Positions 9,569 through 13,074 of a stretch of 64,000 nucleotides of DNA are shown piece by piece. Under the pieces are notes generated by a model. That model did no database searches, was not told the DNA's origin, and saw only the letters and a list, made by a program, of their open reading frames with translations. Positions within the stretch are counted from its first letter, which is position 1. Each line of letters begins with the position of its first letter. This DNA is from Escherichia phage vB_EcoS_I14. The position numbers and the translations under genes are program-made. Location: the sequence record PP892525.1. One strand, given 5' to 3'.

Positions 9569-9598
9569 AAAAAGGGGAAGGAGCATAGCCCCCTCCCC
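9569..9598 (-). terminator. intrinsic terminator-like hairpin
   Basis: GC-rich hairpin followed by UUUUU on the minus strand, between the 255-aa gene and the helicase. Confidence 0.55.
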
Positions 9599-9617
9599 TT
9601 AGGTTTAATTTACCAGA

Positions 9618-10385
9618 TTATTCAGCAGCCGCAGCTTTTGCATCCAGTTTAGCACGCTTAGCGGCACCATCATAGTCCTTAGCAACCAGACCACGACGAG
9701 ACAGCATAGATTTAACACCGCGCTCAGACTTACCAGTTTTCTCAGCGATCTCAGCAACAGTCATGTTAACCAGATCCAGACCTTCTAACAAATCTTCACG
9801 AGTTTTAGCACTTGAAGTTTCCTGTACCGGCATAGCAGCGATACGACCTTCACGAAGCAGGCTCAGAGCTTTACCACGGATCTGCTTGATATTACGACCG
9901 AAGTGAGCAGCAATAGCTTCAATAGTAGCACCAGCAACAACCTGATTAACAAAATCAGTTTCTTCATCCGGAGTGAAGGAACGAACAGCGGCAGCTTTTT
10001 CAGTTGGTTTAACAGAAGCGGTCATTTCCAGACTCAGGATCTTACCCTGTACCTGCTTAGCACCGAACTGACCACCAGCTACAGCAGCAGCGATTTCAGC
10101 ATAGGTATACTGACCAGCATGAGCGTTCAGGAAATCAACCAGTTCAGCTTCCTGCTCGGGAGTCCACGGGGATTTCTGTACTTCGTTAGCTTTCTGTACT
10201 TCAAAACCTTCTTTACGCAGTTTAGAGCCAACAGAGCGAGCAGTAACATCTTTGCCAGTTTCAGCAGCCAGTTCAGCAGCGATAGCAGCTACTTGTTCTT
10301 GAGAGATTACAGCAACACCCAGAGCAGTGGCTTTTGCTTTCAGAGACTCGGTTACACCTTCTACGTTCCAGTTCAGTTTAGACAT
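9618..10385 (-). CDS. Ala-rich protein with four tandem HTH-like repeats, putative DNA-binding (possibly T5 D5-like)
   Basis: 255 aa; four repeats of the pattern (S/T)xxEIAxxxGxxxxxxxxKxxxLxxxG. Confidence 0.5.
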   Translation of the reverse strand: MSKLNWNVEGVTESLKAKATALGVAVISQEQVAAIAAELAAETGKDVTARSVGSKLRKEGFEVQKANEVQKSPWTPEQEAELVDFLNAHAGQYTYAEIAAAVAGGQFGAKQVQGKILSLEMTASVKPTEKAAAVRSFTPDEETDFVNQVVAGATIEAIAAHFGRNIKQIRGKALSLLREGRIAAMPVQETSSAKTREDLLEGLDLVNMTVAEIAEKTGKSERGVKSMLSRRGLVAKDYDGAAKRAKLDAKAAAAE

Positions 10386-11160
10386 TATTATTTTTCTCCA
10401 ATAGTTCTTTAATCGACAGGATTTCTATCCCATTCGTTTCGGCTTTCTTATAAGATGAGGAAGAACGTTTTGATTCATCCTCACAGATTAGGTATTTGAC
10501 GTCTTTAGTAACGGATTTCTTAACCGTATACCCTAGACTTTCTAAATAGTTTGTTGCATCCGTTCTATTTGCAAAATCTTGCAAAGATCCGGTAATACAT
10601 ACCGCGATTCCATTTGGCTGGGCAACTAATTCATCTGTAATGATGATATTAGCTTTAGTGCCCCTAATACCAGTTGAAAATTTCCACGGTAGTTCGATAA
10701 CATCTTTGCCTTGTGGGGAATTTAGCCAGGCTTTATAATTTTCTCCAGCCTTGCCGTCAGCCTTCACATCGTGGAAGCTAGTGCAATTTTGGGATAATTT
10801 CTTTGCTGCAACCTCTCCAATTAGAGGGATTCCTAAAGAACCGAGAACTGAACCAAAGTCAATGTCTCCGCGAACTTTAGTATTTAATTCGCTAATTAAC
10901 TTAGCGGCAACCTTGCTACCCACGGCTCTAACCAAATCTTCTTCGGTTAGGTAAAATAGTTCTGAAATCTTCGTCAGCTCCAGCTTCTCAATAGTTTTTG
11001 GGCCAAAGCCCTTTAACTTCATTTTTGTACAGAAGTTCTCAATTAACTTACTTGATTGTGCTGGACAGTTGGACTTATTACGACAGAATAATTGTCCGTT
11101 GACAAGATCTAGCTTAGAACCACAAGAGGGACATTGTGTTGGAATTTCGATTTTCATCAA
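10378..11160 (-). CDS. NAD-dependent DNA ligase, C-terminal part (Zn finger, HhH, BRCT)
   Basis: 260 aa; zinc finger CPSCGSKLD...CRNKSNC; BRCT-like C-terminus; own promoter and ATG. Confidence 0.8.
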   Translation of the reverse strand: MMKIEIPTQCPSCGSKLDLVNGQLFCRNKSNCPAQSSKLIENFCTKMKLKGFGPKTIEKLELTKISELFYLTEEDLVRAVGSKVAAKLISELNTKVRGDIDFGSVLGSLGIPLIGEVAAKKLSQNCTSFHDVKADGKAGENYKAWLNSPQGKDVIELPWKFSTGIRGTKANIIITDELVAQPNGIAVCITGSLQDFANRTDATNYLESLGYTVKKSVTKDVKYLICEDESKRSSSSYKKAETNGIEILSIKELLEKNNNV

Positions 11161-11187
11161 ATTTCTTCCTTATCAATTTATATAAAT

Positions 11188-11216
11188 ATTATAGCAAGTA
11201 TTTAAGCATTTAGCAA
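11188..11216 (-). promoter_or_regulatory. sigma70-type promoter upstream of the ligase C-terminal ORF (minus strand)
   Basis: Minus strand reads TTGCTA-17bp-TATAAT, then TATAAATTGATAAGGAAG and ATG at 11160. Confidence 0.7.
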
Positions 11217-11359
11217 CTACAATTTTAACTAACTTTGCTTACCCTCGCCATAACTTTCTATCCCTCAACTGAATGATAATAGTATATACCTAAGCGGCGA
11301 AAATGTCAATAACCACTTTATAATTCCGATATGGTAGATGGGTAGCAAAGGGTTATGTA

Positions 11360-12331
11360 TTAATCGTATACTCGCTCTACTATGCACGGGATTACACCAC
11401 CAGCACGAATCACTCGAATCTGGCAACCGATCTCTAGATCAAGAGAGTTAATATAATCAACGTTATTAAGAGTCGCTTTAACAATTGTAGCGTCATCAAT
11501 AATTACCGGTTCGAAATAACCAACTGGAGTTACTTTACCAGAAGCCCCTACCTGCCATTCAACTTTAGTAAGAGTTGTAATCTCGCCTTCTTCATCCTCT
11601 TTAATAGCGAATGCCCCACGAGGGAATTTATTAGTCCAGCCTTCACGGAAGAATTTGTTGTTGTCATTAATACGAACAACTTTACCGTCCGTCGGAATCC
11701 ATTTAAAGAAGGAACGCACATTAACAACTGTTAAGAAATCTTCATTCTCTAGCCAGAGCATATCTTTTAAATATGATTCTGTAATACCTACAGATTCAGC
11801 AGAACACTGGATACCGTATGCAACAAAGATTAAACCACCTTCCCCGATACGTTGTACGAAATCATCGCTATCTTTGAGGTTAATAGCGCCAGAGGCAAAG
11901 TTACGTTTATTTTCTACTTCTTTTGTAATTAGAACTTCACCAGTAATTTGAGTAGGTACTTTTTGGGAAATCTTTTTAGGGATGTTCAGCAATCTTACGT
12001 TGCTTGTGACATCATTCCCTAGAATGCCATTACCGCGAGTTAGTGCTTGAACAAATTCGCCATTAATATATAACAGAGAAATCGCACAACCATCTAACTT
12101 ATCAGTTTCTACCTGACCTAATGGGTTAAACGGAGGTTTATCCCCACGATTATAATAAACTTTCTGTAAAGAATACATACGATACAGATGTGGAATATCT
12201 CCCTTAGGCCCAATCTCTTCCTCTAGTGGGAATCTTTTAATCAGACGATCATATTCTTCGTCAGAGATTAAAGACATTCCCTGGTAATACGCTTCTTGGC
12301 AACGTTTAATAAAGTCTTTTACATTAGTCAT
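11360..12331 (-). CDS. NAD-dependent DNA ligase, N-terminal part (adenylation + OB domains)
   Basis: 323 aa; KxDG adenylation motif TDKLDGCAIS; OB-like C-terminus. Confidence 0.85.
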   Translation of the reverse strand: MTNVKDFIKRCQEAYYQGMSLISDEEYDRLIKRFPLEEEIGPKGDIPHLYRMYSLQKVYYNRGDKPPFNPLGQVETDKLDGCAISLLYINGEFVQALTRGNGILGNDVTSNVRLLNIPKKISQKVPTQITGEVLITKEVENKRNFASGAINLKDSDDFVQRIGEGGLIFVAYGIQCSAESVGITESYLKDMLWLENEDFLTVVNVRSFFKWIPTDGKVVRINDNNKFFREGWTNKFPRGAFAIKEDEEGEITTLTKVEWQVGASGKVTPVGYFEPVIIDDATIVKATLNNVDYINSLDLEIGCQIRVIRAGGVIPCIVERVYD

Positions 12332-12362
12332 TTATTTGTATCTCTCATTAATTTATATAAAT

Positions 12363-12391
12363 ATTATATAACAAAACTGAGTTGAAAGCAA
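12363..12391 (-). promoter_or_regulatory. sigma70-type promoter upstream of the ligase N-terminal ORF (minus strand)
   Basis: Minus strand reads TTGCTT-17bp-TATAAT, then TATAAATTAATGAGAG. Confidence 0.7.
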
Positions 12392-12401
12392 ATACATTTA
12401 T

Positions 12402-12435
12402 AAAGAAAAAGCCAAGAACTAGGCATTCTTGGCTT
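12402..12435 (-). terminator. intrinsic terminator
   Basis: Hairpin GCCAAGAA...TTCTTGGC followed by a U-run on the minus strand, just upstream of promoter 12363-12391. Confidence 0.6.
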
Positions 12436-12727
12436 TGAGTTCTTCAGCTCGTTTCTGTACTTCATGTAAAACCTCAGATTCGCTAAGAATCTGGGTAAAC
12501 GCATAGAAAAGCTGTGATGTTGTTTCTAGGGTGTAAGGAAAAGAGAAGCCAGATTTCGTTGGAAACCATTCATCATTAATATCAAGAAGCCAGTAACGAA
12601 TACCCATGTATAGATTCCCACGAAATTCAGATACTGTTAATCTTACTTGTTCTCCCTCCTTCTCCCAGAGTATGATGGACTGGTCATCAACGTGTCCTTC
12701 ATAGTTTTGATTTACCTGTTCGCTCAT
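12419..12727 (-). CDS. hypothetical protein
   Basis: 102 aa ORF with upstream promoter and downstream hairpin. Confidence 0.5.
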   Translation of the reverse strand: MSEQVNQNYEGHVDDQSIILWEKEGEQVRLTVSEFRGNLYMGIRYWLLDINDEWFPTKSGFSFPYTLETTSQLFYAFTQILSESEVLHEVQKRAEELKAKNA

Positions 12728-12745
12728 TTACATATCCCAAATACA

Positions 12746-12767
12746 CAAAAAGCCCCATATAGGGGCT
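12746..12767 (-). terminator. intrinsic terminator-like hairpin
   Basis: AGCCCC-ATAT-AGGGGCT hairpin followed by UUUUU on the minus strand. Confidence 0.55.
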
Positions 12768-12777
12768 AATTGGTTTC

Positions 12778-13074
12778 TTATCGGCCTACTGGAGAAGCAC
12801 GATCTAACTCTGATTGGAGGCTAGTCACACGACGGACTTTCTCGACAGGAATAAAACGGAAGCTATCATTAGTACGAGAGAAGACAAGGATCTCATCATC
12901 TTTCGCTTTACGAATACGTTCACGTTTAATACGCTCAGCCAGATATTTATCTTGGGCTGGATCAAATTCCATCGTACCCTGAAGGTACGTGGTTCCTTTC
13001 TGACGAAGTTTCTCGTAATGAAGATAAAACTCACCAAATTTTTCACATTGTGCGATAATTTCAGCTTTGGTCAT
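12778..13074 (-). CDS. hypothetical protein
   Basis: 98 aa ORF. Confidence 0.5.
   Translation of the reverse strand: MTKAEIIAQCEKFGEFYLHYEKLRQKGTTYLQGTMEFDPAQDKYLAERIKRERIRKAKDDEILVFSRTNDSFRFIPVEKVRRVTSLQSELDRASPVGR

What the first reader, a model, noticed from the sequence alone, without database searches (positions are those of the whole stretch)
10378..12331. NAD-dependent DNA ligase encoded as two separately promoted ORFs
The adenylation/OB part (11360-12331, KxDG motif) and the Zn-finger/HhH/BRCT part (10378-11160) are separated by 199 bp that contains a full promoter (11188-11216), a GAGGAAG-like RBS and an ATG. The ligase therefore appears to be made as two polypeptides rather than through an intron or intein.
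Basis: partly seen in the sequence, partly recalled or inferred. Interest (0 to 1): 0.5.

Follow-up and report, generated by a model that had tools for sequence, protein, structure and literature searches.

The report
Phage T5 two-subunit DNA ligase

Summary

- **Identity.** The window is a T5-like phage (Tequintavirus). It is 98% identical to many records, and 100% identical to phage T5 across the spacer.
- **The two genes.** ligA (12331..11360, minus strand, 323 aa) carries domain Ia, the adenylation domain with KLDG, and the OB fold. ligB (11157..10378, 259 aa) carries the Cys4 zinc finger, HhH and BRCT. The break lies exactly in the variable OB-to-Zn linker and no residues are missing.
- **The spacer.** The ~200-nt spacer contains two conserved sigma-70 promoters, not one. 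GenBank annotates them for T5 as P-K28b and P-K28a. No terminator, intron or intein is present.
- **Prior knowledge.** GenBank has called the genes "ligase subunit A/B" since the 2005 T5 genome paper.
- **Protein-level evidence.** PDB 9HU3 and 9I5I (2026) show the orthologous Providencia phage PR1 "heterodimeric DNA ligase" on nicked DNA.
- The split is present in all 75 related loci examined, with spacers of 20 to 4568 nt. Of 21 long spacers, 16 carry a T5orf172-like endonuclease gene plus cargo genes. Compact fused relatives (555-586 aa) exist in the same gene neighbourhood.

The parts
12363..12391 (-). Putative early promoter of ligA (TTGCTT-17-TATAAT), followed by the shared block TATAATATTTATATAAATT at 12368..12350
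   Evidence: Read from the sequence. The block is an exact copy of the 19-nt promoter motif. T5 record AY692264 annotates a 'putative promoter' here. The -35 hexamer matches only 3 of 6 positions, so the consensus scan did not list it.
12408..12436 (-). Intrinsic terminator-like hairpin upstream of ligA, at the end of the PC4-like gene
   Evidence: 12-bp stem followed by a T run.
11360..12331 (-). ligA, ligase subunit A, 323 aa. Domain Ia about 12331..12194; adenylation (NTase) domain with KLDG at 12100..12089; OB fold about 11578..11369; stop TAA at 11362..11360.
   Evidence: Pfam PF01653, PF03120; E 6e-104 to PDB 9HU3 chain A; profile alignment to bacterial LigA structures; AF2 model, pLDDT 87; fold matches.
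11158..11359 (-). Intergenic spacer, 202 nt to the ATG start. It has no ORF conserved among relatives, no terminator, no Rfam match and no endonuclease relic.
11281..11309 (-). Promoter P-K28b (TTGACA-17-TATACT); predicted transcription start near 11274
   Evidence: 11 of 12 positions; GenBank 'promoter P-K 28b'; both hexamers conserved in 5 genera. The start position is inferred.
11188..11216 (-). Promoter P-K28a (TTGCTA-17-TGcTATAAT, extended -10); predicted transcription start near 11181.
   Evidence: 10 of 12 positions plus TG; GenBank 'promoter P-K 28a'. The start position is inferred.
11165..11171 (-). Ribosome binding site AAGGAAG of ligB, 7 nt before the ATG at 11157
   Evidence: Read from the sequence. 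The Lindwurm record annotates an RBS here.
10378..11157 (-). ligB, ligase subunit B, 259 aa from the ATG (260 aa from the TTG at 11160). Cys4 zinc finger 11133..11065; HhH about 11019..10768; BRCT about 10611..10396.
   Evidence: BRCT 33.3 bits; HHH_2 24.5 bits; E 6e-81 to PDB 9HU3 chain B 'DNA ligase subunit B'; E 9e-11 to E. coli LigA residues 402-529.
9618..10385 (-). D5 gene. Its ATG overlaps the ligB stop (ATGTCTAA), so it is probably translationally coupled to ligB and co-transcribed from P-K28a/b.
   Evidence: A homolog follows the fused ligase in L089. Coupling is inferred.
9572..9600 (-). Strong terminator-like hairpin that closes the ligA-ligB-D5 unit
   Evidence: 13-bp stem with 8 GC pairs, followed by a T run.

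Best explanation
This is the natural two-subunit NAD+-dependent DNA ligase of phage T5 and its relatives.

LigA (domain Ia, adenylation domain and OB fold) carries the chemistry. It takes AMP from NAD+ onto Lys78 and transfers it to the 5' phosphate at a nick. LigB (zinc finger, HhH and BRCT) supplies the DNA-binding half that single-chain LigA enzymes need for the steps after self-adenylation. The two proteins assemble non-covalently around nicked DNA and seal it, as in the PR1 phage heterodimer.

At the transcript level, ligA is read from its own early promoter. With no terminator after it, transcription continues into ligB and D5. The two tandem strong early promoters in the spacer (P-K28b, P-K28a) add extra transcripts for ligB and for the translationally coupled D5 gene. 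The unit ends at the terminator at 9600..9572.

What is shown here: gene anatomy, domain content, the break point, promoter conservation, and conservation of the split. What is shown elsewhere: the heterodimer on nicked DNA for the PR1 ortholog, going by its PDB entry titles. What is inferred: that the T5 proteins behave the same way, read-through from ligA, and excess expression of ligB and D5.
For: - Identity with T5. AY692264 is 100% identical over the spacer and names the genes ligA and ligB and the promoters P-K28a and P-K28b.
- Domain content.
- Catalytic residues are invariant in 19 homologs: K78, D80, G81, R99, E132, R143, D215 and K244, plus Y15 in domain Ia; Y27 and D28 in the domain Ia EYD motif are nearly invariant (90% or more).
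- Break point: it lies in the variable OB-Zn linker and no residues are missing, compared with fused relatives and bacterial LigA.
- Solved ortholog: PDB 9HU3/9I5I, 'PR1 phage heterodimeric DNA ligase in complex with 21-mer nicked DNA', with separate chains A and B. E-values are 6e-104 and 6e-81. The source is Providencia phage vB_PreS_PR1.
- Conservation of the split: 75 of 75 loci.
- Why LigB is needed: an artificial LigN fragment with the same domains as LigA self-adenylates but cannot ligate (PMC1684257).
- Literature: that paper cites the split T5 ligase as a discovery of Wang et al. 2005.
- Promoters and terminators.
Against: - No biochemical assay of the T5 proteins themselves was found in the searchable literature.
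- The paper behind 9HU3/9I5I is not held, so only the entry titles and chain names could be used.
- Promoter use, read-through and subunit stoichiometry are inferred from sequence only.
- The HhH match in LigB falls below Pfam's cut-off (24.5 against 27 bits), although the alignment to E. coli LigA residues 402-529 is significant.
Confidence: 0.93

Rival explanations
1. The two ORFs are joined into one polypeptide after transcription, by RNA splicing of an intron, ribosomal bypassing or protein trans-splicing.
For: The two halves together make a complete LigA with nothing missing. Phages do use introns and bypassing elsewhere; that is general knowledge, not something tested here.
Against: - Rfam finds no intron or other RNA family in the spacer, even at E = 10.
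- The spacer carries two conserved promoters.
- Spacer length ranges from 20 to 4568 nt among relatives and the spacer often holds independent genes.
- LigB has its own conserved RBS and start.
- No intein or split-intein sequence flanks the break.
- The PR1 ortholog was crystallised as two chains.
Confidence: 0.02
2. The ligase gene is broken and decaying: a pseudogene or relic in which one or both halves no longer function as a ligase.
For: A stop codon followed by a frame change in the middle of a normally single gene is what a disrupted gene looks like.
Against: - Both halves are kept intact in all 75 loci examined, across protein identities from 99% down to about 43% for LigA and about 31% for LigB.
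- Catalytic residues are invariant.
- LigB keeps its Cys4, HhH and BRCT elements.
- The ortholog binds nicked DNA as a heterodimer.
Confidence: 0.02
3. LigB has an additional role independent of LigA, for example as a BRCT/HhH DNA-binding scaffold acting with D5 or the replisome. That extra role would explain why it has its own tandem strong promoters and is coupled to D5 rather than to ligA.
For: - Two strong promoters lie between ligA and ligB, which implies more ligB than ligA mRNA.
- The ligB stop overlaps the D5 start.
- The ligB-D5 adjacency is kept even when ligA lies up to 4.6 kb away. This D5 adjacency was checked only in some loci.
Against: - LigB always co-occurs with LigA and lies downstream of it on the same strand.
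- In fused relatives the same domains are simply the C-terminus of the ligase, still followed by D5. The promoters may therefore serve D5 rather than a second LigB function.
- There is no direct evidence for any LigA-independent activity.
Confidence: 0.1

Closest known systems
Phage T5 LigA/LigB (GenBank AAU05253/AAU05254; Wang et al. 2005, Virology 332:45)
   Same: It is the same locus. The spacer and flanks are 100% identical over 321 nt, and gene order, promoters and annotation all match. [quoted passage not shown]
   Different: Nothing of substance. The window's ligase proteins differ from the T5 st0 record by a few residues (98.8% for LigA and 96.2% for LigB).
Providencia phage vB_PreS_PR1 heterodimeric DNA ligase (PDB 9HU3, 9I5I; released 2026)
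   Same: It is an ortholog with the same break point. Chain A is 339 aa and chain B 248 aa (E 6e-104 and 6e-81). Both spacer promoters are also conserved in PR1, which is locus L019.
   Different: About 54-55% protein identity. The PR1 spacer is 174 nt. The activity and structure were determined for PR1, not for T5.
Single-chain bacterial LigA (E. coli LigA on nicked DNA-adenylate, PDB 2OWO)
   Same: Same domain set in the same order: Ia, NTase, OB, Zn, HhH, BRCT. Same motif I lysine and the same cofactor-domain motif.
   Different: E. coli LigA is one chain of 671 aa. The phage enzyme is compact (323 + 259 aa) and is cut in the OB-Zn linker.
Compact fused ligases of related uncultured phages (for example P0152, 566 aa)
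   Same: 46% identical to LigA. The neighbourhood is the same: ligase, D5 homolog, DnaB, primase, PolA.
   Different: OB and Zn are joined by a 6-25-residue linker in a single ORF.
'Genes in pieces' made by free-standing homing endonucleases (Aeromonas phage Aeh1 nrdA split by mobE; T4 topoisomerase genes 39/60). Cited from memory.
   Same: An essential enzyme is split at a domain boundary into two adjacent genes that still work together. In 16 related loci an endonuclease-like gene sits in the break.
   Different: The T5 window itself has no endonuclease or relic of one in the spacer. No recent gain or loss of the endonuclease could be demonstrated.

Membership tests
NAD+-dependent DNA ligase (LigA family) | Nucleotidyltransferase domain with motif I KxDG and the other catalytic motifs | tested here: met
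   Pfam PF01653 at 83.7 bits. KLDG is at residues 78-81. K78, D80, G81, R99, E132, R143, D215 and K244 are invariant in 19 homologs. Profile alignment to 1V9P, 2OWO and others.
NAD+-dependent DNA ligase (LigA family) | N-terminal domain Ia with the aromatic/acidic motif that confers NAD+ use | tested here: met
   ISDEEYDRL at residues 22-30 aligns to the ISDAEYDRL-type motif of solved LigAs, although the domain-level score is weak. Y15 is invariant and Y27/D28 are nearly invariant. The AF2 model has the two N-terminal helices. Actual cofactor use was not tested.
NAD+-dependent DNA ligase (LigA family) | OB-fold domain following the NTase domain | tested here: met
   Pfam PF03120 at 78.4 bits, residues 252-321. 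E about 1e-26 to the OB domains of solved LigAs.
NAD+-dependent DNA ligase (LigA family) | Cys4 zinc finger, HhH domain and BRCT domain C-terminal to the OB fold | tested here: met
   All three are present, but on the second polypeptide. The four Cys residues align with those of fused and bacterial ligases. LigB residues 3-122 align to E. coli LigA 402-529 at E 9e-11. BRCT scores 33.3 bits; HHH_2 scores only 24.5 against a cut-off of 27.
NAD+-dependent DNA ligase (LigA family) | All domains on one polypeptide | tested here: not met
   There is a stop after the OB fold, a ~200-nt spacer, a new frame and a separate start. This is what defines the split subtype.
T5-type heterodimeric (split) NAD+ ligase LigA/LigB | Two adjacent co-oriented genes cut between the OB fold and the zinc finger | tested here: met
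   The same arrangement is found in 75 of 75 related loci.
T5-type heterodimeric (split) NAD+ ligase LigA/LigB | Orthology of both halves to the characterised pair | tested here: met
   E 6e-104 to 9HU3 chain A and E 6e-81 to 9HU3 chain B. The spacer region is 100% identical at DNA level to the T5 record that names ligA and ligB.
T5-type heterodimeric (split) NAD+ ligase LigA/LigB | Physical heterodimer on nicked DNA, and nick sealing that needs both subunits | not testable with these tools
   Known only from the PDB titles for the PR1 ortholog. Indirect support comes from the inactive LigN truncation lacking the C-terminal domains (PMC1684257).
Intron- or intein-interrupted gene | A self-splicing RNA fold in the spacer, or an in-frame intein with splice-junction residues | tested here: not met
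   Rfam finds nothing in the spacer at E up to 10. The spacer has stops in all relevant frames and the frame changes. No intein domains were found.
Gene split by a free-standing homing endonuclease ('genes in pieces') | An endonuclease gene located between the two halves | tested here: not met
   No match to the endonuclease profile anywhere in the window (best E 1.5). The feature is met in 16 of 21 related loci with long spacers: Pfam T5orf172 at 20.2 bits against a cut-off of 20, and phrog_681 'endonuclease' in 11 of 11 members, best E 1e-14.

The most novel reading that the evidence does not exclude
The OB-Zn linker of this phage ligase lineage was opened by a mobile endonuclease gene and has served as an insertion hotspot ever since.

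- In uncultured relatives, mostly from environmental metagenomes, the break still holds a T5orf172-like endonuclease, usually lying directly upstream of ligB.
- It also holds varied cargo: NADAR, a 2OG-Fe oxygenase, a thioredoxin-like protein, and radical-SAM and carbamoyltransferase genes.
- In T5 and its enterobacterial relatives the endonuclease would have been lost, and the site re-used for two strong early promoters that uncouple ligB-D5 expression from ligA.

Compact fused and split forms appear interleaved in a weakly resolved tree, which hints at more than one split or re-fusion event.
Probability: 0.35. Interest if true: 0.35.

Novelty: already known. Interest (0 to 1): 0.12.

Why it matters
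The locus adds nothing new for T5 itself. It is a textbook-grade example showing that a six-domain clamp-like enzyme can be cut at a flexible linker and still work as a heterodimer.

The split is universal in a large clade of T5-like phages. The spacer is highly plastic. An endonuclease gene recurs in the break, and fused relatives exist in the same gene neighbourhood. Together these suggest how the split arose. They also offer natural fused and split pairs for testing what a phage gains by expressing the two halves separately.

Tried and rejected
- **RNA families in the spacer.** An Rfam scan of 10000..12800 at E up to 10 found nothing in the spacer. The only hit, SpF51 at 12747..12778 (26.5 bits against a gathering score of 50), coincides with a terminator hairpin.
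- **Mini-ORF in the spacer.** MARVSKVS (ATG at 11250) has a GAGGGA upstream, but it is not conserved in IME260 or L016, so I rejected it.
- **Endonuclease relic.** An HMM of the spacer endonuclease family against six-frame translations of the whole window gave a best E of 1.5.
- **Recent endonuclease gain or loss.** The closest endonuclease-free relative of any endonuclease-bearing locus is only 65-68% identical in ligA DNA. Mobility could not be shown.
- **Small inserted ORFs.** The 64-aa ORF inserted after ligA in Salmonella phage 8sent65 and the 62-aa ORF upstream of ligA in KPP2018 show no similarity to each other and have no Pfam match.
- **Endonuclease profile against PDB.** Nothing significant.
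- **Literature.** No paper on T5 LigA/LigB biochemistry or on PDB 9HU3/9I5I was found. Gentz & Bujard 1985, the source of the K28 promoter names, is not held. The search for PK28a/b returned only unrelated papers.
- **Tree of LigA parts.** The neighbour-joining tree is star-like and too poorly resolved to count split or fusion events.
Full report
**What is there.** On the minus strand the window carries two adjacent ORFs.

- 12331..11360 encodes 323 aa. Pfam finds the NAD-dependent ligase adenylation domain (83.7 bits) and the ligase OB fold (78.4 bits).
- 11160..10378 encodes 260 aa from a TTG, or 259 aa from the ATG at 11157. Pfam finds a BRCT domain (33.3 bits) and a sub-threshold HhH match. 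A Cys4 motif, CPSCG...C...C, sits near the N-terminus.
- The motif I lysine lies in KLDG at residues 78-81.
- The first ORF ends in TAA at 11362..11360. The second ORF is in a different frame. The spacer is 199 nt to the TTG and 202 nt to the ATG.
- AAGGAAG lies 7 nt before the ATG, and the solved ortholog starts MKI, so the ATG is the likelier start.

**Where the window comes from.** The region is 98% identical to many Tequintavirus genomes. The spacer with its flanks is 100% identical over 321 nt to phage T5 strain st0, AY692264. [quoted passage not shown] Other records use the same names. [quoted passage not shown] 2005. PMC3632103 and PMC4319617 also mention the two subunits. The feature is thus already described.

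**The spacer.**
- A consensus scan finds two sigma-70 promoters in it. One is TTGACA-17-TATACT at 11309..11281, matching 11 of 12 positions.
- The number of promoter-like sites in the wider region is not above shuffled expectation (7 against 8.9). Other evidence shows these two are real.
  - They are the two best-scoring sites.
  - The T5 record annotates them as 'promoter P-K 28b' and 'P-K 28a'. From my own knowledge, those names come from the functional promoter cloning of Gentz and Bujard 1985, a paper that is not held.
  - Both hexamer pairs are conserved in five genera, down to 54% LigA identity, while the surrounding spacer sequence diverges.
- The block TATAATATTTATATAAATT, shared by P-K28a and the ligA upstream region, occurs 21 times in the window against 0.14 expected. 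This fits the ATATT discriminator reported for all known T5 early promoters (PMC7472727).
- No terminator-like hairpin follows ligA. Terminators lie upstream of ligA (12436..12408) and after D5 (9600..9572).
- The ligB stop overlaps the D5 start (ATGTCTAA).
- My reading is a ligA-ligB-D5 unit with two internal promoters that boost ligB and D5. This part is inference.

**Is it one protein or two?** All the evidence points to two.
- Rfam finds no intron or any other family in the spacer, even at E = 10.
- No intein is present, and the frame changes.
- In 75 related loci (annotated phage records plus 80 IMG/VR contigs), ligA is always followed by ligB on the same strand. There is always a stop after ligA and a separate start for ligB.
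- The spacer in those loci ranges from 20 to 4568 nt.
  - Vibrio phage Dax has three ORFs between the halves.
  - Salmonella phages 8sent65 and bastian have an extra 64-aa ORF directly after the ligA stop, with both promoters kept.
- The Protein Data Bank holds 9HU3 (released 2026-01-14) and 9I5I (2026-02-18), titled 'PR1 phage heterodimeric DNA ligase in complex with 21-mer nicked DNA'. Chain A is 339 aa and chain B, 'DNA ligase subunit B', is 248 aa. They match the window's proteins at E 6e-104 and 6e-81.
- The source is Providencia phage vB_PreS_PR1. This is my locus L019, which also keeps both spacer promoters.

**How it most likely works.**
- The break lies in the variable linker between the last OB strand (GGVIPCIVERV) and the first zinc-finger cysteine (IPTQCPSC). 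Fused relatives and bacterial LigA have 6-25 residues there, and nothing is missing in T5.
- Catalytic residues of LigA are invariant across 19 homologs. The AF2 model is confident (pLDDT 87) and matches the PR1 chain and bacterial LigA structures.
- A LigN fragment with the same domains as LigA self-adenylates but cannot ligate (PMC1684257). This explains why LigB is needed.
- I therefore take the enzyme to be a heterodimer that closes around the nick, with LigA doing the chemistry and LigB providing DNA binding. This is shown for PR1 by the entry titles and inferred for T5.

**Evolutionary context, the part I could not find in the literature.**
- The best 120 homologs of LigA, down to 47% identity, are all 307-337 aa apart from one 240-aa partial sequence (P0012). 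They are therefore split forms.
- An exhaustive representative search finds the first fused relatives at about E 1e-60. These are compact enzymes of 555-586 aa.
- One of them, P0152 (566 aa), sits in the T5 gene order: ligase, D5 homolog, DnaB, primase, PolA. Its D5 homolog is 37% identical to the window's D5, E 1e-49.
- A rough neighbour-joining tree puts all compact phage ligases apart from bacterial LigA. Fused forms are both basal and interspersed, but resolution is too poor to count events.
- Of 21 loci with long spacers, 16 carry a ~122-aa ORF. It matches Pfam T5orf172 (GIY-YIG clan) at the threshold, 20.2 bits against a cut-off of 20. It also matches phrog_681 'endonuclease' in 11 of 11 members.
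- Other cargo in the spacers includes NADAR, a 2OG-Fe oxygenase and DUF1281_C (Pfam matches). By eye from the translations, there are also thioredoxin-like, radical-SAM-like and carbamoyltransferase-like ORFs.
- This pattern resembles 'genes in pieces' created by free-standing homing endonucleases. However, the T5 window has no relic of such a gene, and I found no close presence/absence pair. The origin story remains a hypothesis.

**Verdict.** There are two promoters rather than one, and read-through from ligA is likely. The feature is already known from the annotation and genome paper (2005) and from the heterodimer structures of an ortholog (2026). Interest is low.

Noticed in passing
window, 21 sites (for example 2194, 2295, 11175, 12350, 43340, 46157, 55968): The 19-nt block TATAATATTTATATAAATT (a -10 hexamer plus an AT-rich downstream region) occurs 21 times at up to 3 mismatches, against 0.14 expected. 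Minus-strand copies lie in the first third of the window and plus-strand copies in the rest. It looks like a family of T5 early promoters that marks the transcription polarity switch.
   Followed up: partly
L029, L030, L033, L038, L041, L042, L047, L051, L055, L060, L062, L064, L069, L072, L085, L086 (between ligA and ligB): A conserved ~122-aa ORF recurs in the ligase break of uncultured relatives, mostly directly upstream of ligB. It matches Pfam T5orf172 at the threshold and phrog_681 'endonuclease' in 11 of 11 members. It may be a homing endonuclease.
   Followed up: partly
L018:6953-7609: A NADAR-domain protein (Pfam E 2e-31) is encoded in the spacer of an NAD-dependent ligase in one T5-like phage. 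The NAD/ADP-ribose connection may be more than coincidence.
   Followed up: no
L060, L064, L085 (spacers of 2.9-4.6 kb): These spacers hold multi-gene cargo. By eye from the translations it includes a radical-SAM-like protein, a ~445-505-aa carbamoyltransferase-like protein, a 2OG-oxygenase-like protein and a ~255-280-aa conserved ORF. These were not scanned against Pfam.
   Followed up: no
L004:1554-1748 (Salmonella phage 8sent65; also bastian): An extra 64-aa ORF with no family match is inserted immediately after the ligA stop. Both spacer promoters remain intact.
   Followed up: yes
L002:3625-3813 (Klebsiella phage KPP2018 and about 10 other records); corresponds to window about 12332-12420: A ~179-bp insertion polymorphism upstream of ligA carries a 62-aa ORF that overlaps the ligA start. 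It is unrelated to the 8sent65 ORF.
   Followed up: partly
window 10378-10385: The ligB stop and the D5 start overlap (ATGTCTAA), which suggests translational coupling of ligB and D5.
   Followed up: no
window 11226-11252: A mini-ORF encoding MARVSKVS, with GAGGGA upstream, lies between the two promoters. It is not conserved in IME260 or L016, so it is probably a chance ORF.
   Followed up: yes
window 12747-12778: A weak Rfam match to Streptococcus sRNA SpF51 (26.5 bits against a gathering score of 50) coincides with a palindromic hairpin (12751-12767, AGCCCCTATATGGGGCT) that is followed by a T run only on the minus strand. It is almost certainly just that terminator hairpin.
   Followed up: partly
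P0012; H90: Two database oddities. A 240-aa fragment 99% identical to T5 LigA is filed under Enterococcus faecalis, which is probably contamination. Klebsiella phage vB_KpnS_Uniso31 annotates its ligA as 'putative tail protein'.
   Followed up: no
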